Notes under the pieces: model-generated
Told to the model about the DNA's origin: nothing
Database searches by the model: none
What the model saw: the letters and a program-made list of their open reading frames with translations, nothing else
Translations under genes and position numbers: made by a program
Source: Chiloscyllium plagiosum
Taxonomy: Eukaryota
Reading direction: 5' to 3'
Length of the DNA: 64,000 nt
Assembly (NCBI RefSeq): GCF_004010195.1
Contig: NC_057718.1
Location: 60,382,137-60,446,136, forward strand
Shown: in pieces, positions 6,210 to 63,253 of the stretch
Numbering within the stretch: position 1 is the first letter of the stretch
How the letters are laid out: every line of letters begins with the position of its first letter

Positions 6210-6335
6210 AGAAAGTGAGGTCTGCAGATGCTGGAGATCAGAGCTGGAAATGTGTTGCTGGAAAAGCGCAGCAGGTCAGGCAGCATCCAGGGAACTGGAG
6301 AATCGACGTTTCGGGCATAAGCCCTTCTTCAGGAA
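6210..6335 (-). mobile_element. Penelope-derived mini-element (pLTR) inserted in CR1
   Basis: TSD TATGGTAGG at 6201-6209 and 6336-6344; body GAAAGTGAGGTCTGCAGATGCTGGAGATCAGAG..GGAAAAGCGCAGCAGGTCAGGCAGCATC shared with other copies. Confidence 0.85.
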
Positions 6336-6336
6336 T
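6301..6336 (-). ncRNA. Minimal type-I hammerhead ribozyme motif (intact core)
   Basis: Minus strand reads attc-CUGAAGA-a-GGGC-uuau-GCCC-GAAA-C-GUC-gauu: both core boxes, a perfect 4-bp stem II, loopless stem III and a GUC cleavage triplet. Confidence 0.75.
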
Positions 6337-8767
6337 ATGGTAGGGTATTTTAACTTTTCAAACATAGACTGGGACTGCCATAGTATTAAGGGTTTAGATG
6401 GAGAGGAATTTGTTAAGCATGTACAAGACAATATTCTGATTCAGTATGTGGATGTACCTACTAGAGAAGGTGCAAAACTTGACCTACTCTTGGGAAATAA
6501 GGCAGGCAGGTGACTGAGGTGTCTGTGGGGGAGCACTTTAGGGCCAGCGACCATTAAACAATTAGTTTTTAAATAGTGATGAAAAGGATGGACCAGATCT
6601 AAAAGTTAAACTTCTAAACTGGACAAAGGCCAATTTTGATGGTATTAGGCAAGAACTTTCAAAAGTTGATTGGGAGCAGATGTTCACAGGTAAAGGGATG
6701 TCTGGAAAATGGGAAGCCTTCAAAAATTAGATAACAGGAGTCCAGAAATAGTATATTCCTGTTAGGTAAAAGGAAAGGCTGATAGGTGTACGGAATGCTG
6801 GACAACAAAAGAAATTGAAGGTTCGGTTAAGAAAAAGAACGAAACATATGTCAGGTATAGACAGGAAAGACCGAGTGAATCCTTAGAAGAGTATGAAGGC
6901 ATAGAAGTATAGGGAAATCAGGAAGGCAAAAAGGGGCCATGAGATAGCTTTGGCAAATAGAGTTAAGGAAAATCCAAAGGGATTTTGCAAATACATTAAG
7001 GACAGAATGGTAACCAGGAAGAGAATAGGGCCCCTCAAAGATCAGCAAGGCGGCCTTTGTGTGGAGTCATGCAAAATACTACATGAGTATTTTGCATCAG
7101 TATTTACTGTGGAAAAGGATATGGAAGATATAGAAATTGGGGTAATAGATGGTGACATCTTGAAAAATGTTCATATTAGAGAGGAGGAAGTGCTGGATGT
7201 CTTGAAATGCATAAAAATGGATAAATTCCCAAGACTTGATCAGGTGTACCCTGGAACTCCATGGGAAGCTAGGGAAGTGATTGCGGGGTCTTTTGCTAAG
7301 ATGTTTGTATCGTCGATGGTCACAAGTGAGGTGCCGGAAGACTGGAGGTTGGCTAATGTGGAGCCACTATTTAAGAAAGGTGGTAAGGACAAGCCAGGAA
7401 ACTATAGAGCAGTGAGCCTGATTTTGGTGATGGGCATGTTGTTGGAGGGAAGCCTGAGGGACAGGGTGCACATGTATTTGGAAATCAAGGACTAATTAGA
7501 GATAATCAACATGATTTTGTGCCTGGGAAATCATGTGTCACATGATTGAGTCTTTTGAAGAAGTAACAAAGAGGATTGATGAGGGCAGAGTGGTAGACCT
7601 GCTCTATATGGAATACCTCTGTAAGGTGTTTGAAAAGCTTCCCCAAAGGAGACTGGTTAGCAAGGTTAGATCTCATGAAATACAGGGAGAACTAGCCATT
7701 TGGATATGGAACTGGCTCAAATGTAGAAGACAGAGAGTGATAGTGGAGGGTTGTTTTTCAGACTGGAGGCCTGTGACCAGTGGAGTGCCACAAGGATCGG
7801 TGCTGGGTCCTCTACTTTTTGTCATTTACATAAATGATTTGGATGCAAGCATAAGAGATACAGTTAGTAGGTTTGCAGATGACACCAAAATTGGAGGTGT
7901 AGTGGACAGCGAAGGGGGTTACCTCAGATTACATCAGGATCTTGACCAGATGGGCCAATGGGTTGAGGAGTGGCAGATGGAGTTTAATTCAGACAAATGC
8001 GAGGTGCTGCATTTTGGGAAAGCAAATCAGAGCAGGACTTAAACACTTAATAGTAAGGTCCTAGGGAGTGTTGCTGAACAAAGAGACCTGGGAGTGCAGG
8101 TTCATAGCTCCTTGAAAGTGGAATCACAGGTAGATAGAATAATGAAGAAGGCATTTGGTATGCTTTCCATTATTGGTCAGAGCATTGAGTACAGGAGTTG
8201 GGAGGTCATGTTGCGGCTGTACAGGACATTAGTTAGGCCACTGTTGGAATATTGCGTGCAGTTTTGGTCTCCTTCCTATTGGAAAGATGTTGTGAAACTT
8301 GAAAGGGTTCAAAAAAGATTTACAAGGATGTTGCCAGGGTTGGAGGATTTGAGCTATAGGGAGAGGCTGAACAAGCTGGGGCTGTTTTCCTGGGAGCATG
8401 GGAGGTTTACAAAATTATGAGGGGCATGGATAAGGTAAATAAGCAAAGTCTTTTCCCTTAGGGTCAGGGAGTCCAGAATTAAGGGCAGAGGTTTAGGGTG
8501 AGAGGGGAAAGATATAAAAGACACCTAAGGGGCAACCTTTTCACACAGAGGGTGGTGCGTGTGTGGAATGGGCTGCCAGAGGAAGTGGTGGAGGCTAATA
8601 CAATGGCAACATTTAAAAGGCATCTGGATGGGCATATGAATAGGAAGGGTTTGGAGGGATATGGGCCGGGTACTGGTAGGTGGGACTAGATTGGGTTGGG
8701 ATATCTGGTCGGCATGGATGGGTTGGACCGAAGGGTCTGTTTCTGTGCTGTACAGTCAAATGCCTGT

Positions 8768-9665
8768 TATAGATTCTGAGTGTCAATAGAAATAGACCCT
8801 TTGATTCAACTCATCCATGCTGAATTGATGTCCTAAATTAACTTTGTTTCATTTTCCAGCAAATAGCCCATATCCCTCTAAACCCTTCAAATTCGTATAA
8901 CCATCCAGAAGCCTTTTAAATGTTGCAATTGCACAGTCTCCACCACTTCCTCTGGCAGCTCATTCCATACACACACCACCCTCTGCATGAAGAAATTACC
9001 CCTTAGGTCACTTTTAAATCTTTTCCCTTTTACCTTAAACCTATGACCTCTAGTTTTGGACTCCTATCCAAGACCTCAACTATTCAGCCTACCTAAGTCC
9101 CTCATGCTTTTATAAATCTCTTTAAGCTCACCCCTCAGTCTCTGGCAGTCCAGGGAAAACAGCCCCAACCTAGTCAGCCTCTCTGCCGATAGCTCAAACC
9201 ATCCAACCCTGGCAACATCCTTGTAAATCCTTTCTACACCCTTTCAAGTTTAACGACATCCTTCCTATAGAAGCGAGATCAGATTTAAACACAGGATTCC
9301 AAAAGTGGCCTAACTAATGTCCTGTACAGCCACAACATGATATCCCAACTGACTAATCACAGCAAACATACCACCAAAAACCTCCTTCACTATCCTGTCT
9401 ACCTGCAAACCCACCTTCAAGGAACTATGAACCTGCACTCCAAGGTCTCTTTGTTCGGCAACACTCCCTGGGACCCTACTATGATTTGCCTTACCAAAGT
9501 GCAACATCTCACATTTATCTAAATTAAATTCCATCTGCCACTCCTTAGCCCATCAGCCCATCAGATCAAGGCCCCGTTGTACTCTGAAATAACCTCTTCA
9601 CTGTCCACTACACCATCAATTTTGGTGTCACCTACAAGTTAACTAAACATCCCTCCTATACATTC
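8768..9665 (-). mobile_element. CR1 LINE 3' fragment, tail-to-tail with the preceding copy
   Basis: ORF 9310-9534 MEFNLDKCEMLHFGKAN..EQRDLGVQVHSSLKV; CR1 3' UTR at the left end. Confidence 0.92.
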
Positions 9666-12384
9666 AGGATGTGGAGGTGTTGGTATGCTTTCTTGTAATG
9701 TGTAAAGTATATTTTGTTGCATAAGTTGATTTGGGGATAAATGAATAAAGCTTTCAATGACATTTTTCCCAAGTTGAGCACAAGTGTTGTATTTGATCAG
9801 ACTTTAGTGTACTGTAAAGCATGTGACGACACACTCACTATCCATGTATAAGGAACAAAAGTCAGCCTTGATATATAACAGCAAGGCCTTGCTAACACTG
9901 CTTCATGAAAGCAGGAGTGGATTTAACTACTTTTGCCAGTTTAATTTCAGAAAAAGGAAAATTCAAATATTTTATCACTTATTTTACAATCAGTGAAATA
10001 ATATAGGTACAGGATCTTTTGTAAGCTTATTCATATTAAGTATCACAAGGCAGACAATTCAGTCATTGCTCTGAAACCTAATAAACAATGCAAGTAGATA
10101 TCATTTATTTTCTAAACATTCATCCATTGCACTCGTATTTTAAATAATATTTACAATTAATATAAAATTTGACTGGTTATTCTATTCGTCCAAGGGCCTG
10201 ATCACATAAAGGATAAAACAAAAAAAGATATTTTGACAGTGATTTCCCACCTCTGGTTTCCTGTACGAAAATCATTCAAACATCTGCTCTTTCTGACAAA
10301 AATATTCATTAAAAACATTTCACTGCACTGCCTTTTAATATACTGCAACCATTCAACCTGTGCAGGGAGCTTCCTGAAATTGCACAAATACTGCGTAATT
10401 ATCTCTCAGCTCCCTGCTGGCTGCTGCTGATTCCTTGTAAAGAGAACAGCACATTTACAGATCTCGACTTCTGTGTTCATTGTCCCTGCTAGGAATATGA
10501 TGCAGTACTTCATTATCCTAGGCCTGATCAAACTTAATAGATTTGGCCATTATTCTTGTACATGTCAAAAGCCTTCTGCACTCGCATCTACCACCCCTCC
10601 TCTCCCGATGTCCACACACATACAGATACACACTTCTTAGTTATTTTTTTGTCACCTGGGGAACGTATCTTATCTCTAGACTGTTTTCTTTAAACTGAAC
10701 AGCTTTCACGAACAAGTGCAGCTGACGAATGTTGATGATTTGTCATGTGATAAGAGTAGAATAAGGCGAGCAATTTTTCTGAATTGTTGGCCTGTTCCTT
10801 ATTGACCACTTTTGCTCTTTTTAAATTTTAAATTGCTGAGAATTACTGCACTAAAAAAAATGAAGGACGATTTTGAAGGCAATCACTGTGATCACTTAAT
10901 TCAGTCTGCGCGTATCTACTTGGCATAAGGTAATTACAGTGCCACATCACTGTAAAGACAGAAAGCTTAGGGTGCTGTACTGACTTACCCAGACGATAGC
11001 ACATGATTAGAAGTCAGTGACAGATCACAACTGCTGAATGACCCGTCAAGGTCATTATCAAGGACAAATAATATAATTAGTATGCACTTCACTACCAGAA
11101 AAGTTCAGTGCCATTGTTCTGGCACAATCAAATTAGCCTGGCCAATAAGGACAGTGCTCTGTGATCTTAATCATACAGCAGAAAACCATGAAACCACCTT
11201 ACAAACAGGATTAAAATTTACTTCTTTCAACTGTCTGGGCTGTTAATTCCTTCCTTCGGAGAAGCTACATTTGTCTGATTTAACGAGATAAGATTTGAGC
11301 ATTGATGCAGTGCATTGTTAATACAGCAGGCACATACACAATACAGCAGAGTCCAAGCATCAGATGGGTACATAAATCAGGTATTCAAAAAAATTAGATA
11401 TGCAGCACACCAATTTTATAGTCCCAGCCTTAGAAATTGAAATAGCCCAGATTAATGTATCATATCTTACATACTGTCCGACTGAATCAACTTTAATATA
11501 TTGAACAGATTCACCGAACAAGACTCTGTTATCTGCTAGGGAGATTGACCTATGGATTTGATTTGGTTCAGGTAGTTCATGTTATACAGAACCACTTGAG
11601 CAGCTTTCCTAAGAAATAAAATTTGTAATAGAAATATGTCATATCTCTTTGACTTCATTTTCCATTCCTCATTGGGGGCTTATTTTGACCAGTGGTGAAA
11701 TCTTAACTTTTGTTTTAAAATTGTTTTGCTTTATTACTGCAGAATGTGTTTTCTTTCCAAACGGAATGCAAAGATTTTTGGCATTGTACAATCTGGCAGC
11801 GAATAGAGTTGGGTTTTAGATGGAGTCTCAACCTTTCTTCAATAATGAACAATGCATATGCATGAACTTGGAATAATTTAATTTTCAATATATGACTAAT
11901 AATATATTCTGTTCTCACATTGTGTGTGATATGCAGTGTCTCATTTTGTGGTTTGACATATTGCAAAAAGTATAGTCAATGTGACTTGAGTGAATTTTAT
12001 TGATGAATAGCTGAATTTTATTGGTGAATACATTTTATTATGAATCAGGGCAAACCCTAATAATCTCCAATATGGTTGATAACTATTTGCAAGAATTCAC
12101 AATATCAACCGATATATCTTTGCTTTATTTCTTAGTGGCTGTTTATTTATGCTTCAGGTAGCAACAAGGCTTATGTGATTTAAGGTCAATGGAACTATCA
12201 AGTCCAACTACATTCCTACTCCTCTAGCCTCCACATTCAGGTAAGTGACTTGTTGTAATGGCATCCAGTTAGGCCAGTTCACATTGGTAGGAGCTGTCTC
12301 AGGACAAACCAATGTTGAAGTATTGACCTCCAGCCCTCATTTTTCCCATTTGCACGTGCAAAGGGTCTATTGCTTGCTTAAAGT

Positions 12385-12560: not shown

Positions 12561-12788
12561 CCCTAGCAAATTGATTTGACATTGCAGTTTCCCAGATAGG
12601 GTTTGACCCACATTCTGTAGAATTGAAACATCACTTTAATAGCATTGTATTCCAGCCCTTTTAAGATAGAAGCCAATATTGCATTAGCCATCTGGTTGCT
12701 TTTGCTTGTGTAGATAAAGAATTGTCACTGACTGCTATGAAGAATGAGGGGTGTTTTGATTAACAGAAAGAAGATTGTCACAGGGGAA

Positions 12789-13000
12789 TCATGATTCGGA
12801 GATGCCGGTGTTGGACTGGGGTGTACAAAATTAAAAATCACACAACACCAGGTTATAGTCCAACAGGTTTAATTGGAAGCACTAGCTTTCGGAGTGCTGC
12901 TCCTTTGTCAGGTGACAGCTACCTGATGAAAGATCAGCGTCCGAAAGCTAGTGCTTCCAATTACTGTTGGACTATAACCTGCTGTTGTGGGATTTTTAAC
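12789..13000. mobile_element. Penelope-derived inverted mini-element with two opposed hammerhead motifs
   Basis: TSD TGTCACAGGGGAA at 12776-12788 and 13001-13013; ~85-bp inverted arms; + strand CTGATGA...CCGAAAGCTAGTG. Confidence 0.85.
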
Positions 13001-13184
13001 TGTCACAGGGGAAGGGGAACCTGTCCCCACTGGGAAGACATTGTGGGCAAGGACATAGCAGGGCCTTAAGACAAGTTCCTTGTTATTTTATACCATCTTT
13101 CTCTTATTCCTTCTCACCTAAATCTCACCCTCAAATACAATATGTGAAAAATTATTGCTGCTTTCAGAAGCCTCAAGTGAGTGA

Positions 13185-13312: not shown

Positions 13313-13394
13313 TTGTAAGCCACTCGCCTGTCTCTGCTTATCCATGCCGTCAAACATTTAAGACAAATGCAACATTTAAAATGAACAGCAACAG

Positions 13395-15183: not shown

Positions 15184-16719
15184 GCAAACAATTCAACAAA
15201 AGAAATACTGGTCATCCAAACTGCCATTTGCTGGTTTATATTCCCAAAAACAATATGTGCGGTCCTTACAATGATTATATGAATTGAGGATAAAAGATTG
15301 CAATATGGCCTGGTCAACAAATTTCCAGTGAATTATGTTATATAATTTGTTACTGAATCATTTCCTGGCTGCAAAAACAAAGCCATCAGTCTTCTATAAA
15401 TTCCTCACTAGTTGAAGAAATAATTGACAAAAGATCAAGACTGATCACTGTTGAGGTTGAGGGGTCTGTAAAATAGACTAAAGGAAGGAGAAGCAAAAGT
15501 GGAACTGAAATCAAGAATGCAAAAGACACATTGAACCAACCGCATTGTGTCTATATTGGCCCGTCTGATAATACTCAGGCAAGACAGCCTGAATCACGAA
15601 GCACAGCTGAAACAGGGCAAGAGGCAAACTTGGGTGCATACAATGCTGAAGTGTTTGCAATGACATGCTGACAAATATGATTAAAAAGTTACATGGAATG
15701 ACACATTGTGAATTCTGAAAGATTCCGACAAGAATGTTTCAAAGAGATTTGACACTGACAAGGGATACAAAATGTAAGCATAAGATCCTTAAGACTGTCA
15801 AATGCAATATCTCAGTCAAAGATGGTTTCTTCAGGTTCAATCGTATTTGACAGGACTTTCAACATGGCCACACCACAGATGATCTTAATACCTTCGATTC
15901 ACAACTTTTGAAATATCTTACAGAATAATTTGCTGTCAAATGACTATTTAATTCCCCTTCAAATTAATCTGTATATTCTACATTTCATGGTCTAACACTT
16001 TTTTCCCAAATTCATGCATTCTGCAGACCTCTGTCTAATTTTCCACACTTTTCTTTCTTCAAGTCAATCTTCTTCACCTTTTCATTTTGCCTTAAACTGC
16101 TCCAAACCTTTCAATCTGCCAATGGGTTTAGATTTACTTTTATTTCGTCCTTTAAAATTCTCTCAAGTGCCAAGTAACAGCTACCATCTCATAAATGTAA
16201 TATTTCAGATCATCTTTCCTTCATCTTTGATTATTTGTGTTTCCAATATTTTGTCATCAAATGAAACCCCATATCGCCTCCATGTTGAAACTTCATTCAA
16301 TAAATTTGGTTTCCTTTTCATGCAAATACCTTTGTCTTCCCATAACTCTTGTTTCCATATAAACCTCAATTTACCAAGATTTAATTACTCCTGTAATTTG
16401 CTGCCAAACAAAAGTGGTATTTGCTAAATGGATCCATTTTCATCCCTTGCCTCCAAGCTTTGTTCCTCTTTGCGTGCAACTTTCTTGTCTTTCTTAGTTT
16501 GCTCAATGGTTGTCCTCAGTTTTGTGACAGCATTCTACATCTTTTTCCTTTACCTGGAATCCTTTTTGCATTGACCTTCAGGCCCAAAATGTTGCCTGCT
16601 TTCAGGACTCATAACTTTAGCTAATAATTCTCCAGTTGATGTGGCCTGGTCAACAAAATCCCAATGGATTGCATTCTGATGTCATACTCTTGATGGACAT
16701 TTCTTATTCAATCTTCAAT

Positions 16720-17480: not shown

Positions 17481-19112
17481 AAAAACATCAGATTACAGGG
17501 AAGCCTGCATTTGGATGAGAAAGGGGCAGCAACAATAGTCAAGAGGTATGCAAGTCCTTGAAAAAGCAACAAAATTAGAAGGGGAAGGAAGGCCTTTTGA
17601 AGATCTCCTCACCTAACTGTCAGAGATCAGTTTTCCATTCCAACTTTGAGGACATACAAAGAACAATTCTGCATATTTCTGTAATGTTCTTTGCCATTTT
17701 CTTCATTCTCCATTGAAAGATATTCAAAGCACTCAGCCTAAATGGCATTATTATTCTGACAAAACCATTTCACAAGTTACTATAAATCCACACAGTACTC
17801 CCAAGTGCCAAATCAGAGCAAGGTGATTAATATAATGCCTAACATAATCCAGTCAATTAACTAATACTGGCTTAAGAAAATATCCTAACTCTACCACTCC
17901 AAGGAAGCTCTCTCCTGCAGGTTTGAGGAAAGCTGGTGGAAAGGTTACTTTTACTCACATGTAGCCCCTCGAGATGCTTGTTGTTGGAGATTCCTGATTG
18001 CTTGAAGCATTGGAGGTACTGGTTGCAGCAATTTAGCTGCAATTTGAGATTTGTCCAGCTGATTTGCAGACTCCATGGCAGGTATCTTTTGGGCAAAAGT
18101 GGAGGTGAGGATACAGACTTCATCATGGAGTCTACCAACTGCTGCTATGATGCCACTGCCACATGCTTGGAATTTGATCTCATCTCTTCCATTAAACACA
18201 ACACTGGAGATGGCAGGCTCTTTCACATGCTTCCTGTCCTCACATGCGCACAGTACCTGCCCAAAGTTAAAATCAGCTTTAAGATCCTCAGAATTTTGAC
18301 TTTTGACAAAGTTTGGTGAAAGTTTGATGCAAATCAAATATGAATGGCAGGCAAATACGATAGCCTGAAGTATACTTTGAATCATGTTTCCTTGGTCAAT
18401 ATGAAAACCAACATGTGGATAAAGCCCATCAGGCAAAGAATTTCTTTGAACACAAGAATGGTAGATGTTCCCTGTCAAACAGATATCACAGACAAACAGC
18501 ACTGGTCATGAACAGGTAAGTCTGTAATTGATTAATATTCCCATGAATAGAGAAAAAAAAAGCCATTAATTGCTTTAACTAGAGGGAGAGTTCTGCTCAG
18601 CAACTGAATTGGAAGTTCTAATGTCATTGGATTATTATTCCAGAGGCTGTGGCTAATGTTCTGGGGGCATAGGTTAAAATCCCACTATTGCAGTTGGTGG
18701 GATTTGAATTCAATTGATAAACCTGGAGTTTAAAAAAAACTAATCTCAGTAATGGAGAGGACTGAATGACTGTAGATCATGGCATATAAAAAGTATCAAA
18801 GGTCAAGCTTTTCACATGCTCAGCATATAAATTAACTCTCCTTTTCAGCCATGGCATATGATACTCATACAAGTATCCACCCTCAATTTTACACTCCACA
18901 AATGGATGTTTCACTTATTGATGCTTTATAACTGGTGTTATGGGTTGTGTTGTGAAGTTATTCAGTATTTCAAGGCACAGTCACATTGAGTAGACCACAA
19001 GTGGTGAAAAATAAAATGATGACAACCACACCAATGTGCATGATTCACTTTTCTATTTGGTGTAAATTCAAACCTGACTTTTGCACAGGGTTTATAAGAC
19101 ATCAAAGGTCAA

Positions 19113-19245
19113 TAACACAAAACAAAGAACTACTGATGAACTGTTCTGATGAAGGGTCACTGGACTCAAAACATTAACTCTCTTTTCTTTTTCTTTCTCC
19201 ACAGATACTGTCAGATCTACTGAGTTTCTCCAGCACTTTCTGTTT
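19113..19245 (+). mobile_element. Penelope-derived mini-element with decayed hammerhead motif
   Basis: TSD ACATCAAAGGTCAA at 19099-19112 and 19246-19259; TTCTGATGAAGGGTCACTGGACTCAAAACATTAACTCT..CTCCACAGAT.CTG. Confidence 0.8.
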
Positions 19246-20029
19246 ACATCAAAGGTCAACTTACACTGTCCCAACATCTACATTACCTGATTGCTGTAAA
19301 AGCTCATCTGGGTCACTTTGGCAATGAAATCTGCCATCTTTACTTTGTAACTCAAGATCCAGACAATATGATTGACTCTTAACTGCCTTCTGAACTGTTC
19401 TAACATGCCATTTAGTTGCAGAAAGCCTCCATGGATATGTTGGAAAAGGAATAAAATTGGTGGGCCCACTAGACGTCAACCTGGGCACCAAAAACATCAG
19501 CAACATGGTCAATCCAGTCCTTTTTAGCAGTAACAGCTTATGCCAAAGCTTGAGCAGTAATCCCATTGACAACATACATTACAGCCAATGTCCCAGATAT
19601 CTCCTTCACCATCCATTGGTTCTCCCATTGTATGACAGAACCAGCAGAAGTAACAGCACATCAGAATATATGCAGCTGGGAAAGAGTGTTCCTTGAAGTC
19701 CTCAGGCCAATAAGTTTCAAGGTATCAAATCAAGCAAGGGCATGGGCGTGTTCTGCTGCTTACCACTTAAACCCTCCTTTAGCTGATGTGTCACCAACAA
19801 TCACAATTAGATTTCTGTTATACTCCTACTTCCACGTGTCCTGATGGAGCTCAAGATTTCTCACTGGATCCTTCAATCTTCATTTCTTCAGAAATGCAGA
19901 GCACAGAGTACTGTGACGAATTCCAGTGAAGTGAATTGCACTTGTGGGAGTGAGGAAGTAAGTGTAGCCCTTTTTACAGCATTTGTGTTGTAAGGTGAGC
20001 TCATATGTCCATTTTGAATGTTACCAAAT

Positions 20030-21168: not shown

Positions 21169-22012
21169 TCATAGAGTCAAAGCGATGTACAGCATGGAAA
21201 CAGACCCTTCGGTCCAACTAACTGTACCTCTTGTGCTCGCATCCAAATCATTTATGTAAATGACAAAAAGTAGAGGACCCAGCACCGATCCTTGTGGCAC
21301 TCCACTGGTCACAGGCCTCCAGTTTGAAAAACAACCCTCCACCACCACCTTTGAGCTAGTTCTGTATCCAAATGGCTAGTTTTCCCTGTATTCCACCTTG
21401 CTAATCAGTCTCCCATGGGGAATCTTGTCGAATGCCTTACTGAAGTCCACATAGATCACATCTACCACTCTTCCCTCATCAATCCTCTTTGTTACTTCTT
21501 CAAAAAACTCAAACAAGTTTGTGAAACATGATCTCCCATGCACAAAGACATGTTGACTATCCCTAATCAATCCTTGCCTTTCCAAATGCATGTACATCCT
21601 GTCCCTCAGGATTCCCTCCAACAACTTGCCCACACCGATGTCAGGCTCACTGGTCTATAGTTCCCTGGTTTGTCCTTACTACCCTTCTTAAACAGTGGCA
21701 CCACGCTAGTCAACCTCCAATCTTCCGGCACCTCACCTGTGACTATCGATGATACAAATATCTCAGCAAGAGGCCCAGCAATCACTTCCCTAGCATCCCA
21801 CAGAGTTCTAGGGTACACCTGATCAGGTCCTGGGGATTTATCCACCTTTATGCATTTCAAGACATCCAGCACTTCCTCCTCTGTAATATGGACATTTTGC
21901 AAGGTGTCGCCATCTATTTCCCTACAGTCTATATCTTCCATGTCCTTTTCTACAGTAAATACTGATGCAATATTCTCGGTTAGTATCTCCCCCATTTTCT
22001 GCGGCACAAAGG
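21169..22012 (-). mobile_element. Younger CR1 copy, internally deleted, inserted in the older LINE
   Basis: ORFs 21376-21633 and 21606-22109 (KSPGPDQVYPR, PEDWR, PGNYRPVSLTS, DFSKAFDK); the 3' tail at 21169-21219 is joined directly to RT sequence. Confidence 0.93.
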
Positions 22013-23694
22013 CCGTGATATGAAGACATTGGATACCGCAAAGGCCTTGGTCTGAAAAACATCTTGGCAGTAATGCTAAAGACTTGATCTCCAGTTTGAG
22101 ACACATCATTTATTTGCTGTTCCTATACATTTACTGGCATTTACCTTACAACATGGAAAATTGCCCAGTTCACAAACAACAGGATAAATCTAACCCTAGA
22201 CAATTACCATCCTACCAGTCTATTCTTGATAATTAACAGTGATGGAAGGTGCCAATGTCAGTATGATCAAACAGAACTTATATAGTAACAATCTGCTCAC
22301 TGATGCTGTGTTTGTCTTCCACCAGAGCCACTTGATCCAGATCTCTTGGTTACACCTTTGCTTTAAACAGCGAAAAAGCTGACCTTAAGAAGTGAGATGA
22401 GAGTGACTGACCTTGACCTTACAACAACATTTGATGAACTGTTTCAAATTGCAGTCAATGGAGATCAGCAACAAAACTACCTACTCTCTCCAGTCACTCC
22501 CAATGTAAAGGAAGATGGTAGTTGTTGAATGCTGGCCATGTCAGATGCCATCTCTGCAGGCATTTCTCAGTTTTCCATGCTCAACATTTCCACAGTTTCT
22601 TCAATTTTTTTTTCATCATCTAAGATCAGAAGTGCTGATGAAACATTCACAAGTCCTCAGATATTGAAGCAACCTTATCCTATTTGAAACAGCTCCCAGG
22701 AAACATCTAAGGTTTGTCTGACAAGTGACAAATTTGAGATTCATCAATATCTTAGAGATTATCCTTAACCAGAAGGTGAATTGGACCAGCCAAATAAATT
22801 CTGGTACAAAAGGCATGACAGAGGACATAAAACTTGCAAACAGTAACTTGTTTCCTGAATCCTTAAAGCCTATTCACCTTTTCTACAAGGCACTGGTCAC
22901 TATTGATGCAATAGCAGAAGTCTGTATCACCTGCAAGGTGCCCTGCAGAAATTTATCAATGTTCCTTAGTCAGTAATTTCCAAAGCCATGACCATTCCAA
23001 ATCAGAAGGACAAGGCTAGCAAATACATAGGAATAACACCAATATTTCCTCTCTGAGTCACTCATTTCCTTGACTTTGAAATATATGTCACTGGGTCAAA
23101 TTCCTGGAGTCTCTGATTCAAGGGGATTCATAGAAGATGCCCCTACACAAAATGGACTGGAACAGTTTGATAAGACAGCACCAATTTGTCAAGAACAACT
23201 GAAGATGAGAAATAAATGCTGGCCTCGTTAACAAAGACCAAATCCTCTCAATGACTGATATAACTCAGACACTCTTCAAAGTAATATTTTGCTTGCTGGG
23301 AACCATTTCCATGTGTTTACTCCCACAAACCCTACTTGCTAAGTTGGGATTCAGCTTTGGGGCAGATAGGGGTGCTAGTCTGTAATGGGAAAAATATGCT
23401 GATATTTGAGCCCCACCTATTCACTCATCATGCCATTAGTGTAACTATGTTGATTCAATTTCCAGAATGGTCAATTGTTTCTCTTTTGTACTCCATCCAG
23501 AATGAAAGAAACATTCAGAAGGCTCCTTTAATGAACTCAAAATAATCCATTTATTATCAATAAAACCTTCTCTTCAAACACGTAGCAAATGCTGGTTTAT
23601 ATCTAAGCCACCATCTGGAATCGAAACAATATTCCCGAGAGAGCAGGACTTACAAAATGAGGAGATTTTGAATCAGTGAGGATTATATTTGCTG

Positions 23695-27081: not shown

Positions 27082-27402
27082 GGGCGGCACGGTGGCACAG
27101 TGGTTTGCACTGCTGCCTCACAGCGCCAGAGACACGGGTTCAATTCCCGCCTCAGGCAACTGACTGTGTGGAGTTTGCACGTTCTCCCCGTGTCTGCGTG
27201 GGTTTCCTTCGGGTGCTCCGGTTTCCTCCCACAGTCACAAAGATGTGCAGGGTCAGGTGAATTGGCCATACTAAATTGCCTGTAGTGTTAAGTAAGGGGT
27301 AAATGTAGGGGTATGGGTGGGTTTCGCTTCGGCGGGTCGGTGTGGACTTGTTGGGCCGAAGGGCCTGTTTCCACACTGTAATCTAATCTAATCTAAATCT
27401 AA
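27082..27402 (+). mobile_element. HE1-type SINE, young full-length copy
   Basis: GGGCGGCACGGTGGCACAGTGG (A box), GGGTTCAATTCCC (B box), CpGs retained, (AATCT)n tail. Confidence 0.97.
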
Positions 27403-28750
27403 TAGCATGATAGCCAAATGGATTTTCTCAAGTTCACATCCAATGAAAGAATGTGAATCTGGAATGGGCCAGTCTAGACTCCATGCCAAATTATGGGCTA
27501 TAGTTTAAAATATAATCTGTTGGTAATTGCAGTGCGAGATACAGTACAAAATTATGAGGGGATCCTCATGATTCATTTGCATACACCTGAGCAAAGACCC
27601 AGACTTTGGAATTTGTTTGATATCGAAGATTGAAACTGTTTCCTGTAATTTTCTTCCTGTAATATTATTTAGCTTGTTTCTTTTTAAAACCTTTCTGTTT
27701 TCTCTATCTATGTTATACAGCAATTAAAAAAAATAAATTCTCAAATACCTATAACTGTGTTCAGTTATTAGGGCAAATTTTTACTTTGTTATTTTTGTCT
27801 TTGTCCATAATTATCAGGGATCCAGAGTTGTGGTCTCATCAATTGAAGTGTTGCACACATTACTTTGTCACAATTGTACTATTTTCAAGCTTAGTTTTTG
27901 TATCAATTGAATGTTACCCTATTGTCACACATGGTATTTCAAAATTTTATAAGCAACATCATAGCTGCAGATTATAATACTGGTTCATTCATAGACCAAT
28001 TAAACATGTAATTACATCATGTATCTACACAGGCAAATAGGAACCAGCAGATGTAAATTCAGTTGCTGTGTGGAGAAAGACCCTGAAATGGCACACCTGA
28101 CCGGCTGTCAAGAAAACTTCAAATGGGTGAACTTAAAAAGGCAGAAGTATGTTACAAACTAAACTGTAATCTCCTTGGAGTTATTTTTGACTTGAAAATG
28201 ATGAGAGAAAAAAATCAGGTCTGGTAAGAGATAGGTTTTCTTTTCTCTTTCCCTTTCAAAAATATGCAAGAACAGAGGTTGGAATCCAATTGAAATCTGG
28301 TCTCTGTGTCCTAGTTCAATAAGGTGTGTTTGTGGAAAAAGGTTTGCTGCTCAGTTGAGGTACTTGTGTGTCCTACCCTGAGTTAGAATGCCAGTGTGCT
28401 GCAAAGATCCCAGGAAAAGATCTGTCCATTGTCCTGCATTGTTGGGAATTTTCTCATTTTAAGTGCTAGAAGATATTTAACCAGACAGCCAGTCGAAAGA
28501 AAACAGAACAAAATAATTTCAATTAATTAGCAAAGCCAACAATCTTGAAATTGAGTGCATGCCTCCACTAGCTATTCTTATTGAATGACCCAGACACTGA
28601 ACCATTTATCTTGTTCATTTTTGGACTCACTTCTCATTCCTAATCTGTGTTTACATATACTGCCTTATTATGTGCTCCCCAGCTTAGTAATGTGTTTTTA
28701 ACTCAAGAAAAGCTGATTAAGTTTGCTCTTTTTGGTCTTGAGGAAACATA

Positions 28751-28960
28751 TTCTGGATTAGTGGTGCTGGAAAAGCATAGCAGTAAAATTGATGTTTCGG
28801 GAAAAAGCCCTTCATCAGGAATACAGTCCTGTATTCCTAATGAAGGGCTTTTGCCCAAAACGTCGATTTTCCTGCTCCTCTGATGCCACCTGAACTGCTA
28901 TGCTTTTCCAGCACCACTAATCCAGAATCTGGTTTCCAGCATCTGCAGTCATTATTTTTA
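28751..28960. mobile_element. Penelope-derived inverted mini-element with two opposed (decayed) hammerhead motifs
   Basis: TSD TCTTGAGGAAA(C/T)ATA at 28736-28750 and 28961-28975; palindrome centred on 28827-28828. Confidence 0.87.
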
Positions 28961-40119: not shown

Positions 40120-40370
40120 AACGTGTGGTGCTGGAAAAGCACTGCAGGTAAGTCAACATTCAAGGAGCCCTTCATCAGCTCCTTGTGGGGAAGGGGGCTA
40201 AGAGGTAAATAGGAGAGGGAGGTGGGACTGGGGGGAAGGTAGCTGGGAAGGCTGAAGAACTTCAGGGCAGAGGAGATGACCTGTGGGGTGCAGTGAAAGA
40301 GAGACTCACTGAGATCCTTGTGGAGGGAAAAGGAGAACTTCTTTAAGATGGGCATCCTCGGAAGAGGCTA
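40120..40370 (-). mobile_element. Penelope pLTR fragment
   Basis: GTGTGGTGCTGGAAAAGCAC.GCAGGT, GCCCTTCATCAG and GAAGAACTTCAGGGCAGAGGAGATGACCTG; same family motifs as the other mini-elements. Confidence 0.65.
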
Positions 40371-40726: not shown

Positions 40727-41251
40727 AGGAGAAAGTGAGGACCGCAGATGCTGGAGATCAGAATCTAGAGTGTGGTGCTGGAAAAGCACAGCAGGTTGGC
40801 ATGGTGGCACAGTGGTTAGCACTGCTGCCTCACAGCGCCAGAGACCCGGGTTCAATTCCCGCCTCAGGCGACTGATTGTGTGGAGTTTGCACGTTCTCCC
40901 CGTGTCTGCGTGGGTTTTCTCCGGGTGCTCCGGTTTCCTCCCAGAGTCCAAAGATGTGCAAGTCAGGTGAATTGGCCATACTAAATTGCCCGTAGTGTTA
41001 GATAAGGGGTAAAAGTAGGGGTATGGGTGGGTTGCGCTTCGGCGGGTCGGTGTGGACTTGTTGGGCCGAAGGGCCTGTTTCCACACTGTGGAAATCTAAT
41101 CTAAAAAAAGGTCAGGCAGCATCCAAGGTGCAGGGGAATCGACGTTTCAGGTGAAAACCCATTCCTGATGAAGGGCTTTTGCCGAAACATCGATTCCCCA
41201 GCTCCTCGGATGCTGCTTGACCTGCTGTGCTTTTCCAGCACCACACTCTTA
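40727..41251. mobile_element. Penelope-derived inverted mini-element (contains an HE1 SINE)
   Basis: Imperfect 16-bp TSD ATACAGACAGGGACAT (40711-40726) / ACACAGACGTGGACAT (41252-41267); inverted arms; ATTCCTGATGAAGGGCTTTTGCCGAAACATCG at 41161. Confidence 0.82.
40797..41108 (+). mobile_element. HE1-type SINE, young copy
   Basis: Near-identical to 27082-27402; flanked by AGGT on both sides. Confidence 0.96.
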
Positions 41252-41439
41252 ACACAGACGTGGACATGTCCTCCACTCCACTTCCTGAAGTTGATGACCA
41301 ACTCCTTCCTTTTGCTGACATTGAGGGAAAAATCCTTGTCTTTACACCAGGGTACTAAGCACTTTATCTCTTTCTTGTACTCTGTCTCATTGTTGTTTGA
41401 GAACCAACCAGTACGGTGACATCAGGAAATTTGTAAATA

Positions 41440-43225
41440 GTAAAGGTAGAGAAGGCAGAGATGCTAAGTGACTATTACCTGTCTATTTCACCAAGGAAGA
41501 CACAATAAATCTTCCATAATTAGAGATCCAAGTGACTAAAGAATGAGAAGTTAAAGGAAATAAGCATTAGTAAAAACTTGAACTGGGGAAATAAGTAGGG
41601 CTGTAAGTTAATGAATCTCTGGGACTGCATATTCTACATTTCAGATTCTTGAAGGAGGTGACTGTAGAATAGTTGCTATACTGCTCATCATCTTCCAACA
41701 CTTCATGGATTTTGGAATGATTCCCATAGATTGGAAACAAATTTAAAAGTAAGCATACCCAGTATTTAAGAAAAGAGCAAGGGAAAAAAGAGGCCTTACA
41801 TCAGTAGTCACGAAAATGCTACACTTATAAAGGATGTGATAAATGGACAATTGATTAAAAATGATCTGATTGAGTATAGTCAGCATGGATTTGCAAATGG
41901 AAAATTGTGTTTGACATACTGGATGCAGTTTTTGAGGATGTAATATACAAGATTGATAAATGTCAGACCACGGATGTAATACATTTGGATTTTCAGAAGA
42001 CTTTTGACACGGTCCTTCACAGGAGGTTGGTAATCAAAATTATAGGCAAAAGTGATTCCTGATGAATGGCTTTTGCCCAAAACATCGATTCTCCTGGTCT
42101 CAGATGGTGCCTGACCTGTTGTGCTTTTCCAGCACCACACTCTTGACCTGGAACCAAAATTATAGTCCATGGGATAACATGTAATTTATTGGGATATATT
42201 AAGAATTAGTTAACAGGCATAAAACAGAGAGTAGGAGTAAATGGGTCATTTTCATATTAGCAAACTGTGATTTCTGAGATACTGCAAGGATCAGTACTTG
42301 GACCTCAGCTGTTCATCACAACATACAGCAATGATTTACCTATGGTGACCAAATCTAATATTTTCAAGTTTGCAATGATGTAAAGCAGGAATGATAGTTA
42401 AGAGGAAGATGTAAAATGATTGCAGAAGGCTTTGTCCAGGTTTAGTGACTGGGCAGGAATGTGGCAGATGGAATATGTGTGAGGTTATCCAATTTAGTCA
42501 GAAGAACAAATGTGTAGAGTATTTCTTAAAGTATGGATATATAAGCAGACTTGGGTGTCCTTGTCAATAGGTCACTGAAGGCTAAAATACTGGTTCAGCA
42601 AAGTATTAGGAAGGCTAATGGAATGTTATCCTTTAACACAAGGCAATTTGAATAGAAGAGCATTGATATCATGCATCAAGTGTGCAACAGCTTGGTTAGC
42701 CTGCAGCTGGAGGACTACGTGCATTTCTGGTCAGCTTAACACAAGAAAGGCATTATTATCATCAACAGAGTGCAACAAATGGTCACTGGGTTGGTCCAGG
42801 GATGGCAGGTGTATCCTATGAAGAGGGATAGGGCAAATAGGGCCCGTATTCCCTGCAGTTTTGAAGAATGAGAGGTGATCTCATTGAAGTCTACAGAATA
42901 CTTTAAGTGATAGACAGTGTAGATGCAGGTTAAGGTATTTCCCTATTTGGGAAGCCTATGAACCAATGGGCAAAGCTTAAAAATAATGGGCCTGCCATTT
43001 TGGGCTGAGAAGAGATGGCTTTTTGTTCAGAGGAATTTGAATCTTTGATACCTCTACCCCAGAGAGCTGGGGAAGCCCAGTCTTCGAGTATGTTTGAAGT
43101 CGAGGTTGATACATTTTTGATTAGCAATGGCATAAACTGCTATGGAGATAGCTTAGTTACAAGGTATTGAAGTGTTCAATCAACCATGATCATGTCAAGT
43201 GGGCTTGAGGGGCTGATCGGCCTAT
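41440..43225 (+). mobile_element. Old CR1 LINE ORF2 fragment + 3' UTR
   Basis: CAGCATGGATTT, TTGGATTTTCAGAAG (LDFQK), CAAGGATCAGTACTTGGACC (QGSVLGP), TGGCAGATGGAAT (WQME), 3' UTR GGCCTATTCCTGTTCCTATGTT. Confidence 0.82.
42046..42154 (+). mobile_element. Penelope-derived mini-element in old CR1, decayed hammerhead
   Basis: TSD CAAAATTATAG at 42035-42045 and 42155-42165; ATTCCTGATGAATGGCTTTTGCCCAAAACATCGATT. Confidence 0.8.
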
Positions 43226-44725: not shown

Positions 44726-46085
44726 AAGGAGGTGAAATTCCTGCCCAAAGGCTTCTCATTTTTCCGATTAAAAGCAATAATTCTGTCATGGCATCCCTTA
44801 GTAAAACAGTTATATGTTCACATTGCTCTTCCAAGTTAAATATTTTGAATGAAATAAGACAACTAAAATTTTATGAAGTATGCACATCCATTCTAATACA
44901 GAAATATTTAGCTTTACATCCCTTATGATAGTCTTTATTCAACAACTTAAAAGTATATTTCATAAATTCAGTCCTTTTCTCCTGATTAGTTAATAAACTT
45001 AAGTTTAACTTGACCTCTGATCTCTATCTTCTATAATTCAATCTTTCCATTCTGTTTGGAATTTTCTGTATATCCGCTAAAGTCTGTTCTCTTCAGCCTT
45101 GTTGACCTGTTAGAAGGAATGTTCTTCAATTTATTTGGACTTTTGTAAAAGGCAAACTTGATTGCACAAATTCTGAATTTTCAAAACAAAAACTGTAGTG
45201 ATTTGTTTTATCAAATTGGAAATCCTTTTTGCAAATAGAACAGCATACCAAATCCATCCATGATGTTTTCATCTGCTTCTGATTCATATCTCTAATATAG
45301 TACATGCTGTTGTGATGCTTATCACTTCACATTTTAGACTTTTCTTTAAATGGTTTCCTCTCCTGCTGTGGAAAGAAAGGGCAGGTACGAACCAACTATA
45401 GTGCTGTCAAATCATCTTTATCATCCATCACTACACTGCTTTCTAGTTATATCACAGACAGGCATGTGGGATTAAGTACAGGAAATTTATAATTACAGAT
45501 ATTAACATTTAAATGTTTTCTGCCTTACTTATGAAAAGTGGTTAGTGTATGATATGCATGCCATCATTTCCATTGTTGTTATGACCCAGCAGCTTGTTGA
45601 CCTTAAAAGGTTATCTTTCAACACAACACCACAGTTTGTTTTAATGGGCTCTTGGGTAAATTAGACTGCCAATTTTTTGCAACTCTCTGATTAGGGAGAG
45701 AGTGGCAAATATATCAGATTTTGGCTCATTAACCCATAAGTAGGTTATTATCTGTATAAAACTTCACCATGGGTTTAAATGGGATCATGATGAACTCATA
45801 ATCAAAGCAAGCCTAAATATTGAAGATGATCCTGTTCCATTGCATTGTGTGCTGCAATATTTCATAATTATTGACATCAAACCATGTTCCATGTTAAGGA
45901 CTCAATTTTACTCTTGATCATAAGATGTTGGTGTGGATATGCATTTATATTTCATTGTGTGTGATCCTTGCACAAATACATACATGTGGGTGCCTCTAGG
46001 AAGTTAAATAACAGTAGCATTATTATCTGTTATACCCTATTTAGCTTGGAGGGCTATGTGTCTTAAGTCATAGCATCTTTTAATC

Positions 46086-46530
46086 TGAAGTCAGATTTAG
46101 GATTTAAAAGGTTACCAGATCTAAAATCTAAAATAAGTCACCATATTATTTCAACAAAGTGGTGTTTGGATGGGTGGGATGCAGAAACAGAGATCAAGTG
46201 ATTCAAACAATAGTATCCAGGTGTCTCAAAGAGGCCCTCAAATAAAATTAACCATCTGTAAAAACTGCTTTTCTTAACTTCTGCGGTCAATAAAAACCAC
46301 ATTGTCACTTCTAGCAAAGTATTCACTTCTCAGATGTTGGGAAACACTGCATATGCTTCAACAGATGCTTAATTTTATTTGAGGAACCCCTTGGAGACAC
46401 CTGGGTACTTTTCAAATCACTTGAGCCCTGCTCATGCACCCCACCCCTTAACACCACATTGCTAAAATAATATTGAAAATTATTTTAAATGTTAAACCTT
46501 TAAACCTTTGAAAACCTGAATCTGTCTTCA
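46086..46530. repeat. Fold-back element / long imperfect inverted repeat (probable old MITE)
   Basis: Arms 46086-46259 and 46361-46530 align as reverse complements, e.g. GTATCCAGGTGTCTC / GAGACACCTGGGTAC and CCTCAAATAAAATTAA / TTAATTTTATTTGAGG. Confidence 0.85.
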
Positions 46531-46951
46531 TACAAAAATAGGTCACTACTTCAAACCCTCATCCTTCCGAGAGATTTCTGGACACATATCATGAAGTTAT
46601 TGGGGGAAGCACTGATTGTAAAGTATACAGGCTTGCTTAAGGGAGTGATTATTGCCATTGAAGTTCAAAAATATTGTGAATAGATCAAAGATCTCTAAGA
46701 ATATCAGACTGGAAGGCTTGCTTCTTTTGATAATGAAAGTGATTTAAACAATTAAATTTTTAATGTAAATTTCAATGGTTCATTAAGTCTGTCATTCTCA
46801 AACTTACGAAGTTTCCTCGAAAAGTAGAACCTGTGCTGCTATTGATCAGAAAGAGATTGAATGGGATCCATTGTAATTCCAGCTCAGACAACTCCAACTC
46901 AATGGCTTTGAGCATTCCAGCAGATGAGCTGTATTTATAATAGAAACATAG

Positions 46952-47237
46952 AAGTTCAAAGTTTGTACGAAGATTTGTAGCTCGGGTGCTCGTTGTTGTG
47001 GTTCTGTTCACCGAGCTGGAAGTTTTTGTTGCAAACGTTTCGTCCCCTGGCTAGGCGACATCATCAGTGCTTGGGAGCCTCCTGCGAAGCGCTTCTTTGA
47101 TGTTTCCTCCGGTGTTTATAGTGGTCTGTCCCTGCCGCTTCCGGTTGTCAGTTTCAGCTGTCCGCTGTAGTGGTTGGTATATTGGGTCCAGGTCGATGTG
47201 TTTGTTGATGGAGTTTGTGGATGAATGCCATGCCTCC
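46952..47237 (-). mobile_element. Penelope-like element 3' end (GIY-YIG endonuclease C-terminus + pLTR)
   Basis: ORF 47051-47242 LEAWHSSTNSINKHIDLDPIYQPL (cf. the PLE RExLEAWHx..IN motif); CpGs retained. Confidence 0.85.
47031..47070 (-). ncRNA. Minimal type-I hammerhead ribozyme motif (intact core)
   Basis: Minus strand GCA-CUGAUGA-u-GUCgCCU-agcc-AGGgGAC-GAAA-C-GUU-UGC: stem I GCA/UGC, 7-bp stem II with one mismatch, palindromic AACGUU stem III. Confidence 0.8.
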
Positions 47238-47434
47238 AACATGGTATAATCTGCAATGGGACTGCTGGCCTGGATAATCCTGATGTGGAACCTGAATTGA
47301 AAGATTGGAGGATGCAGGATGCAATGGGAATGAATAGGTTAGTGTGAGGAGAGGGTGACTCTGATATGCAGGTAGTGCCTGAAAAATAAAGAACCACTCC
47401 CACCCTCCCCTCTGCCTGGCCAAGATGCTGCTAG

Positions 47435-52542: not shown

Positions 52543-52559
52543 GGGAACAGCTCTGACTG

Positions 52560-62120: not shown

Positions 62121-62369
62121 AAGGACCGGTTGCCTCTGAGCACTTGCATTAGTATGAAGACCAATGGATCTTTCTTTCATATCTGTGGACAAAAAGATCA
62201 TTTGACAATGAAATACCACAGAATAGTGAAGTTGTATTATTGATTAAGAGCTGGTAAGTCTCACTGTTCTTCTACCTTAGTAATACAATGACATTTTGAG
62301 TTTCTTGCCATGGTATTCGTAGATTTAGGACAAAGAGATGAATGAATTTGAGAGAAGAATGCAGAGTAC

Positions 62370-62870
62370 CAATTCAGTTCTTCAAGAGACTCATACAAGA
62401 ACAGTGAATCATTGATGAATATCTTTGCAGACAATCGTCCCTGCACTGAAAGATTTGCTGTTAAGACTGTTGAGACTCTGTATAAAAGGATAACATAAGA
62501 TGAACTTTATCATTGAATGCTGTCATTTCTGACAGGCTAGGCAAGGTCGAACAATGTTCTTGATAAAAAGCGGAATGCATTCTCATGTTTCGGTATTGCT
62601 GAAAGACTTTCTGGTATGTGCAGAGTTTATTGTACTCTGTGATCGTGTATGATATGCAAGAAGATCCCATCAGGCTTGCTCTCATTGTGGATGGTTGAAC
62701 GATCATTGTGACTACCTTGTACAATTGAGGATATTGGCACTTCCAATGCATTTTTAGTAGCCACATGCAGTGAATCCTCATTAGCAATTTTTTGTAACAT
62801 AATCTTATATTTCTAGGAGTACATAAAGAGTTTTGCTCATCCTGACCTGGAAGAATTTCAGAGGCATCTT
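62370..62870 (-). pseudogene. Possible PIF/Harbinger transposase relic F
   Basis: Minus strand KFFQVRMSKT (FxxxFRMSKxTF), AFNDK (YFNYK), QGRLSAKIFINDSLFLYESLE (GRxxDxxxFxNSxLYxxL), in the expected order. Confidence 0.35.
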
Positions 62871-63160
62871 TTTTTGCTGCATTAATGGATGAATGCCAGG
62901 TACTGTAGAATTTTCATCTTGCAATGTCAAACTGCATCTGTTGGAGTTATCTTCTCTGGTTCATTCGCTGGGTGTGCCTCCTGTCAGTGGCTACTGTCTG
63001 ACTTATTATGCCAGGATCCCCCGATGGATAGATGCCTCCAAGGACTTCAGTGAAAACTGTATAGGCTGACAGTGCATAATGCAGGCATGAGATTGATTTT
63101 GCACGCTGCTGAATAGCAAGATGCCTTGTCTGAGGACTGCTAAGCAGCAAGACAAGCTTC

Positions 63161-63253
63161 TGGATCAGTGGTGCTGGAAGAGCACAGCAATTCAGGCAGC
63201 ATCCGACGAGCAGCAAAATCGACGTTTCGGGCAAAGGTCCTTCATCAGGAATA
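63161..63253 (-). mobile_element. Penelope-derived mini-element with near-intact hammerhead motif
   Basis: TSD AAGCTTC at 63154-63160 and 63254-63260; minus strand uuc-CUGAUGA-a-GGAC-cuuu-GCCC-GAAA-C-GUC-gauu. Confidence 0.82.

What the first reader, a model, noticed from the sequence alone, without database searches (positions are those of the whole stretch)
6210..63253. Dispersed population of tiny hammerhead-ribozyme-bearing Penelope-derived mobile elements with long TSDs
Seen: seven short inserts (6210, 12789, 19113, 28751, 40727, 42046, 63161) each have a direct duplication of 7-16 bp and a CUGAnGA-stemII-GAAA-NUH motif or a decayed version of it. An eighth (46952) links the same motif to a GIY-YIG C-terminus. 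They fall into at least four sequence subfamilies, about one per 8 kb. Established: Penelope-like elements carry minimal hammerheads in their pseudo-LTRs, with short palindromic stem III thought to act as dimers. Inference: this genome holds a large class of non-coding, ~100-200 nt ribozyme-defined elements, similar to SINEs or retrozymes, mobilised in trans by Penelope RT/endonuclease. This is the best candidate for an under-described system in the window.
Basis: partly seen in the sequence, partly recalled or inferred. Interest (0 to 1): 0.72.

Follow-up and report, generated by a model that had tools for sequence, protein, structure and literature searches.

The report
Penelope run-off stubs in shark DNA
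These 90-230-base insertions with hammerhead-ribozyme motifs are real and very common in this shark genome, but they are the short ends of known Penelope-type jumping genes, likely dead copies of the first ~100 bases of the element's RNA rather than a new self-spreading class.

Summary
All seven short inserts have flanking duplications of 7-16 bp. Ten minimal type I hammerhead motifs from four unrelated families covary across families, and the 46952 copy carries a Poseidon-type GIY-YIG C-terminus. The host is a carpet shark.

Family A is very abundant: 78,270 contigs of one same-species run align to one copy. It has two 3' ends about 45 nt apart and a 5' pile-up 4 nt before the hammerhead core at an initiator-like site, not at the cleavage site. 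Three inserts are head-to-head pairs with a tail on one arm. A missed ninth locus (40122) joins family A to a longer upstream repeat and an ORF start.

pLTR hammerheads, solo copies, tails, inverted arms and variable TSDs are published Penelope-like element (PLE) features. The best reading is dead-on-arrival by-products: RT primes internally near the mRNA 5' end and runs off it. Only 2 of 10 motifs are intact, and the catalytic G12 decays like other CpG sites. A separate retrozyme or SINE class is not supported but not excluded. The scan reported this on other shark DNA many times.

The parts
6210..6335 (-). Family A stub with tail; intact minimal hammerhead (C3 at 6332, predicted cleavage between 6305 and 6304); inserted in a LINE
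   Evidence: TSD 6201-6209 / 6336-6344; ends pile up at 6206/6207, 6251 and 6336 in four runs
12789..13000 (.). Family C head-to-head pair: arm a 12789-12916 (-, with ~43-nt tail, G8 mutated), arm b ~12919-13000 (+, no tail); 11 nt between the two C3 positions
   Evidence: TSD 12776-12788 / 13001-13013; arms 91% alike
19113..19245 (+). Family B stub (distant from A); C3 at 19146, G12 mutated; about 28 unexplained bases between TSD and helix I
   Evidence: TSD 19099-19112 / 19246-19259
28751..28960 (.). Family A (second subfamily) head-to-head pair: arm a 28751-28822 (-, no tail, internal deletion), 10-nt palindromic spacer, arm b 28833-28960 (+, tail; G5 and G12 mutated)
   Evidence: TSD from 28736 / from 28961
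40122..40369 (-). Missed locus: start of a shark ORF (40355 onward) joined by an internal deletion to the upstream C-rich part of the family A repeat and a body with the hammerhead deleted; no clear TSD
40727..41253 (.). Family A head-to-head pair: arm a (-, tail at 40727, 5'-truncated in stem II at ~41160) interrupted by a SINE-like repeat (40797-41108); arm b 41161-41253 (+, no tail)
   Evidence: TSD 40713-40726 / 41254-41267 with 2 mismatches
42046..42154 (+). Family A stub, no tail; +1 at 42055 preceded by 9 extra bases that include an inverted piece of stem II and a G at -1; G12 mutated
   Evidence: TSD 42035-42045 / 42155-42165
46952..47237 (-). Family D: 5'-truncated Poseidon/Penelope-type PLE; GIY-YIG C-terminus, intact minimal hammerhead (C3 at 47067), tail region with a predicted stem-loop
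   Evidence: (77-83% identity to shark PLE proteins)
63161..63253 (-). Family A (second subfamily) stub, no tail; core intact, one mismatch in stem II
   Evidence: TSD 63154-63160 / 63254-63260

Best explanation
The inserts are hammerhead-plus-tail ends of the terminal repeats of three or four shark Penelope-like retroelements, likely made as dead-on-arrival by-products when the element's own RT primes at an internal site 90-130 nt from the predicted start of its mRNA and runs off the 5' end. Shown: TSD-flanked insertions, two discrete 3' ends, a 5' pile-up 4 nt before C3, head-to-head pairs, neutral-looking decay of the core. From the literature: an internal promoter in the pLTR (D. virilis), internal RT starts at the two tail ends, cleavage and extension of both DNA strands, and ribozyme cleavage not needed for insertion (anole PAc). 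Inferred: that the 5' pile-up is the transcription start; that each mRNA carries a priming site at its front, so stubs outnumber long copies; that staggered nicks give the 7-16-bp TSD; and that head-to-head pairs arise when both nicked strands prime and the two cDNAs join.
For: (four runs laid on the 6210 copy). The best-supported loose ends were at 6206/6207 (905+944 contigs in X1, flanks unlike each other, agreement 0.33-0.34), 6251 (883) and 6336 (747, agreement 0.33), with the same places in two related organisms. The plurality letters behind 6336 continue for about 12 nt into a shared upstream sequence that makes +1 the A of a YYANWYY initiator-like word (1.3% per position by chance). In 3 of the 5 listed opposite-strand joints, one arm is fixed at 6335/6336 or both forms of it (6267, 6287, 6288 partners), while the other arm varies.

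within the 40122 copy, summed depth over the upstream repeat is about 20-300-fold below that over the body in three runs.

Window: 8 of 12 arms start within about 3-9 nt before C3 in families A and C; 0 of 12 start at the cleavage site; 3 of 3 inverted inserts have the tail on one arm only. G12 is mutated in 8-14% of depth, like other CpG sites (5-17%).

Literature: PMC11167929, PMC2377424, PMC3846280, PMC8557442, PMC4209133.
Against: No transcription start was measured; the RNA run is poly(A) single-cell data and showed no pile-up of read ends (table 6), which is no test. The 6210 reference itself ends at 6336, so copies that run a little further also clip there, and 936 loose-end rows were not shown. 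Summed contig depth is not a copy number, and the 40122 copy is diverged, so the ratios are rough. Depth over the ORF start (50,000-109,000 in X1) exceeds that over the upstream repeat (900-12,000), which this model does not explain. No RT was linked to families A, B or C: P0006 and P0008 have no Pfam match and no longer relatives were found. The second A subfamily and family B do not show the initiator word clearly. The RT start sites were mapped in a Poseidon element, whereas the clade of A is not established here.
Confidence: 0.65

Rival explanations
1. The stubs are a self-propagating non-autonomous family (Pol II SINE-like). Each begins at the RNA start and would carry an internal promoter and the RT-binding tail, so stubs could be transcribed and copied again by PLE protein in trans.
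For: Discrete ends and very high abundance. D. virilis Penelope has an internal promoter. pLTR sequences sufficed for mobilisation in trans in Adineta. Non-autonomous pLTR elements exist in Chlamydomonas.
Against: A stub that starts at +1 loses the bases upstream of the initiator A, and tail-less stubs lose one priming site. Copies are 74-89% alike and decay at CpG even in the core. Family A continues into a longer repeat and an ORF start. RNA reads on the motif run on into unlike sequence in 96% of cases and lie in both directions, as expected for passengers in host transcripts.
Confidence: 0.15
2. The 5' pile-up is an RT stall or joining hotspot on full-length RNA: the RT stops after copying the hammerhead, or the endonuclease or repair resolves the cDNA at the ATT word there.
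For: The pile-up coincides with the 5' edge of helix I in families A and C. PAc endonuclease prefers ATT. The inverted partner arms end at varied places inside the motif (joints).
Against: The hammerhead region folds no better than shuffles (z -0.66), so it is a weak barrier. Family C lacks ATT there. A G directly before +1, which would fit a cap, is seen at 42054 and in 3 of 4 listed joint rows from 6336 (table 5c; weak).
Confidence: 0.12
3. The inserts are monomers of non-LTR retrozymes, copied from self-cleaved circular RNAs.
For: Type I hammerhead in every family. A head-to-tail joint (6335 back to 6206) exists in 5, 3 and 3 contigs of the three DNA runs. Vertebrate retrozymes derive from PLE pLTRs and include monomers (bioRxiv 2026.07.22.740005).
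Against: 0 of 9 loci are tandem. Ends are not at the cleavage site. Tail-less copies are not circularly permuted: they still start at +1. The motifs are minimal, not canonical (no Rfam hit). Eight of nine Xenopus dimers tested did not cleave.
Confidence: 0.05
4. Head-to-head forms come from self-priming on an antisense template, as proposed for Adineta PLEs, not from priming on both DNA strands.
For: Palindromes at inverted junctions were so interpreted in PMC3846280; 28751 has a palindromic 10-nt spacer.
Against: It does not explain single-arm stubs with the same 5' end. PAc extends both strands on a sense template in vitro.
Confidence: 0.05

Closest known systems
[quoted passage not shown]
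   Same: Core boxes, extra base between positions 9 and 10.1, G10.1-C11.1 pair, palindromic 15.2-16.2, short helix I, several consensus families per genome, mostly single dispersed motifs ascribed to truncated PLEs.
   Different: Sharks are not mentioned in the parts read; counts there are thousands per genome, while here tens of thousands of contigs match one family; element ends were not mapped there.
EN+ PLE insertion units: pLTR, adjacent inverted copy, optional 30-40-bp tail, variable TSD, solo pLTRs (PMC3846280 and PMC8557442; passages read)
   Same: Head-to-head arms with the tail on one arm, TSDs of variable length, ORF-less solo copies.
   Different: Here most units lack any ORF, the tail is about 40-45 nt, and 5' ends pile up just before the hammerhead instead of including the whole pLTR.
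PAc Poseidon element of Anolis carolinensis (Frangieh et al. 2024, PMC11167929; parts 1-2 of 4 read, Fig. S2 not seen)
   Same: Two RT start sites bracketing the tail a short way downstream of the hammerhead; product length set by the RNA 5' end; cleavage not needed for insertion.
   Different: Only family D is shown to be of this type; for family A the ORF start found lies in a separate, deleted copy and no RT was linked.
Non-LTR retrozymes (PMC7229834, passages; bioRxiv 10.64898/2026.07.22.740005, parts 1-3 of 5)
   Same: Non-coding, type I hammerhead, related to PLE pLTRs, long TSDs, monomers dispersed.
   Different: Retrozymes are defined by tandem units and circular RNAs; these inserts are single or head-to-head, minimal, mostly decayed, with ends unrelated to the cleavage site.

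Membership tests
EN+ Penelope-like element | ORF with RT and GIY-YIG endonuclease (family D) | tested here: met
   47057-47242 is 77-83% identical to the C-terminus of shark proteins that carry an RT match and a GIY-YIG-type motif read by eye
EN+ Penelope-like element | ORF with RT and GIY-YIG endonuclease (families A, B, C) | tested here: inconclusive
   A is joined to an ORF start matching P0006/P0008, but these have no Pfam match and no longer relatives; B and C have no coding link in the window
EN+ Penelope-like element | Terminal repeat carrying a minimal hammerhead | tested here: met
   upstream continuation of family A
EN+ Penelope-like element | Optional tail at one end and adjacent inverted copy | tested here: met
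   3 of 9 loci are head-to-head, each with the tail on one arm; two 3' pile-ups
EN+ Penelope-like element | Variable-length target-site duplication | tested here: met
   7 of 7 short inserts, 7-16 bp; not clear for 40122 and 46952
Minimal type I hammerhead | Core boxes, extra base 9/10.1, stem II, palindromic helix III, covariation | tested here: met
   6 of 8 pairs change on both sides across 9 arms; 0 of 500 shuffles reach the covariation score, and slid controls are far lower. The signal is between families, the rows are related, and 41161 was left out
Minimal type I hammerhead | Self-cleavage | not testable with these tools
   needs in vitro assay; only 2 of 10 arms are intact
Non-LTR retrozyme | Head-to-tail tandem units each with a hammerhead | tested here: not met
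   0 of 9 loci; such a joint in only 5, 3 and 3 contigs among 59,000-95,000 laid per run
Non-LTR retrozyme | Canonical type I hammerhead | tested here: not met
   no Rfam hammerhead match at E<=10
Non-LTR retrozyme | Circular and linear monomer RNAs | not testable with these tools
   poly(A) single-cell reads cannot show them
SINE | tRNA-derived head and A-rich or simple-repeat 3' end | tested here: not met
   no such end in the alignment; ARAGORN found no tRNA in the window (a weak test for decayed heads)
SINE | Own source copies, independent of the autonomous element | not testable with these tools
   no genome held

The most novel reading that the evidence does not exclude
The stubs are a Pol II-transcribed, hammerhead-headed SINE-like class: run-off products that keep an internal promoter and the RT-binding tail and so re-seed themselves with PLE protein, reaching an inferred 10^5 or so copies in carpet sharks with no ORF and no need for cleavage.
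Probability: 0.15. Interest if true: 0.6.

Novelty: new member of a known kind. Interest (0 to 1): 0.3.

Why it matters
PLE replication is still poorly resolved. If the 5' pile-up is the RNA start, the many shark junctions form a natural record of it: where transcription starts, where RT primes, whether both DNA strands prime, and that the hammerhead is not cut before insertion. It also warns that descriptor counts of hammerheads in such genomes mostly count dead copies. As a new class of mobile element the finding does not stand on present evidence.

Tried and rejected
Rfam scan at E<=10: no hammerhead family, only chance-level hits. No whole genome is held, so no genome-wide alignment was possible. 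A family A pattern found 0 matches in viral contigs and 0 in metagenome contigs.

The word-indexed protein search with the 46-aa ORF start found nothing; the exhaustive search gave 4 hits, of which 2 are repetitive and were set aside. A search with P0008 residues 1-160 for longer proteins found only P0008 and P0006 among 189 candidates. The ESM Atlas gave unnamed or HEAT-like clusters and named no family.

Monomer folds of 7 stretches were no better than shuffles (z from -1.23 to 1.76). No RNA holder was listed for the stretch searched. Run X22 laid no reads on 40090-40400 (no test). No orthologous empty site was seen; the skip joints probably come from other copies of the host LINE.

Three C3 coordinates were off by one and were corrected. 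A candidate remnant at 3306 was not supported. A D. virilis-type downstream promoter element (RGACGTGY) does not match family A well.

Paper searches showed no report on shark PLE hammerheads or on 5' pile-ups at the pLTR start. The library lacks most subscription journals and Repbase entries, and the bioRxiv supplements and Fig. S2 of PMC11167929 were not seen (3 text files, no term found).
Full report
Observation. All named inserts exist at the stated places. Flanking duplications were found for 7 of 7 short inserts: 9, 13, 14, 11 (about 16-18 with one mismatch), 14 with two mismatches, 11 and 7 bp. In 200 random position pairs, 11 bp or more arose once, 9 bp or more 7 times and 7 bp or more 63 times. 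The 46952 copy has only a weak candidate.

Motifs. Ten arms carry a minimal type I hammerhead with an extra base before stem II. A strict descriptor gave 4 hits against 0.75 in shuffles, a relaxed one 11 against 6.4. Rfam has no matching family. On 9 arms, 6 of 8 named pairs change on both sides; no shuffle of 500 reached the covariation score and slid controls were far lower. This signal is between families, and the rows are related. A model from those 9 arms recovered the held-out arm at 41161 and nothing else below E 0.09. Only 6210 and 46952 keep core, stem II and helix III palindrome intact.

Families and host. Blastn and nhmmer split the inserts into A (6210, 28751, 40727, 42046, 63161 and a missed copy at 40122), a distant B (19113), C (12789) and D (46952); C and D match nothing else. 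D encodes a C-terminus 77-83% identical to Chiloscyllium and Hemiscyllium proteins with RT and a GIY-YIG-type motif, so the host is a carpet shark and D a 5'-truncated Poseidon/Penelope-type element. D does not by itself tie the short families to a coding element. For A, the 40122 copy does so in part: it joins the family A body and an upstream C-rich repeat to the first 35 codons of an ORF found in the same sharks (69-77% identity), and loose ends show the ORF continuing in other copies. No RT was linked to that ORF. Earlier AI notes call family A Neptune-like; I did not confirm it.

Ends. No genome was held, so public runs were laid on two copies. On the 6210 copy, 78,270, 94,736 and 59,480 contigs aligned in the same species and two relatives. 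The best-supported loose ends were the same in all runs: 6206/6207 (tail end), about 6251 (tail-less end, partly blurred by this copy's own divergence) and 6336 (5' end); two further rows, 6243 and 6297, reflect sequence variants. Flanks beyond 6336 agree only 0.33-0.35, like the flanks at the tail end, yet their plurality letters continue about 12 nt into a shared upstream sequence. So most copies stop at or near +1 and a minority run on. That upstream sequence makes +1 the A of a YYANWYY word (chance 1.3% per position). Caveats: the reference ends there, and 936 rows were not shown. In the 40122 copy, depth over the upstream repeat is about 20-300-fold lower than over the body; depth is not a copy number and the copy is diverged. 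In the window, 8 of 12 arms start within about 3-9 nt before C3, one is cut in stem II, two are long, one (B) is ambiguous, and none starts at the cleavage site. Three of three head-to-head inserts have the tail on one arm only. Head-to-tail joints are rare (5, 3 and 3 contigs).

Decay. G12 is changed in 8-14% of depth, within the 5-17% of the other CpG positions, while non-CpG variation listed in the motif falls at N7 and loop II (47 rows not shown). This fits a ribozyme conserved in source elements and neutral in inserted copies.

Mechanism. In the anole element PAc, RT starts at two internal sites that match the genomic tail ends, both DNA strands are cut and extended, product length follows the RNA 5' end, and hammerhead mutants insert normally (PMC11167929). 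D. virilis Penelope starts transcription inside its pLTR from an internal promoter (PMC2377424). I infer that a shark PLE mRNA starts 4 nt before the hammerhead core and carries a priming site 90-130 nt downstream. Priming there and running off the 5' end gives a stub fixed at both ends; priming on both nicked strands gives head-to-head pairs; long copies need priming at the downstream repeat. Confidence 0.65. The start site, the cap and two-strand priming are inferred. A G before +1 at 42054 and in 3 of 4 listed joint rows fits a cap; that lead came from earlier notes and the numbers are small. Against this reading, the higher depth over the ORF start than over the upstream repeat is unexplained.

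Rivals. Self-propagating SINE-like stubs (0.15) cannot be excluded without a tree of copies. A stall or joining hotspot (0.12) would give the same pile-up. Retrozyme circles (0.05) fail on tandem layout, end positions and permutation. Antisense self-priming (0.05) addresses only the inverted forms.

Known context. Dispersed solo minimal hammerheads ascribed to truncated PLEs were reported in 2014 (PMC4209133). Tails, inverted pLTRs, solo pLTRs and variable TSDs are described in PMC3846280 and PMC8557442 (passages). Retrozymes are covered in PMC7229834 (passages) and a 2026 preprint. My six answered paper searches showed nothing on shark families or on the 5' pile-up, within a library that lacks most subscription journals; unseen supplements may bear on this. 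The scan's own index holds 171 findings with these words in at least 23 genomes, several with the same reading; I had formed mine before looking, and they are not independent support.

Verdict. A real and abundant feature; new shark members of a known kind; not shown to be a separate class. Interest 0.3, resting on the end map as a testable clue to PLE replication.

Noticed in passing
window 40253-40369 (-): Summed contig depth over this ORF start is higher than over the adjoining upstream repeat, the reverse of what simple 5' truncation predicts; unexplained, possibly a divergence effect.
   Followed up: partly
window 6176-6207 (loose ends): The plurality letters outside the tail junction show TTGG or TTGA-like letters 15-18 nt out in all three DNA runs, a possible target-site preference near the second nick.
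   Followed up: no
window 6201-6209, 28750-28753: The TSD overlaps the element's 3' end by 3-4 matching bases, suggesting microhomology at priming.
   Followed up: partly
window 6331: A U4-to-A change in the hammerhead core appears in 96 of 434 RNA reads of one direction but about 0.2% of DNA depth; probably one abundant host transcript carrying a mutated copy.
   Followed up: no
window 40797-41108 and 27086-27379: A young SINE-like repeat (95-96% between the two copies) has inserted into the 40727 stub; the name HE1 SINE is recalled, not tested.
   Followed up: no
window 46078-46538: A 460-bp imperfect inverted repeat (70%), like a decayed MITE.
   Followed up: no
window 6010-8750, 21200-22100, 40374-40757: LINE remnants: an RT domain at 7515-8039 and PF09004 at 40446-40757; several stubs sit inside such LINEs.
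   Followed up: partly
window 15996-16424 (+): A weak 7TM GPCR Pfam match below the curated cut-off (E 2.8e-4); possibly part of a host receptor gene or pseudogene.
   Followed up: no
window 19113-19140: About 28 bases between the TSD and helix I of the family B stub, including a repeat of the first hammerhead box; may be an inverted 3' piece plus template slippage.
   Followed up: no
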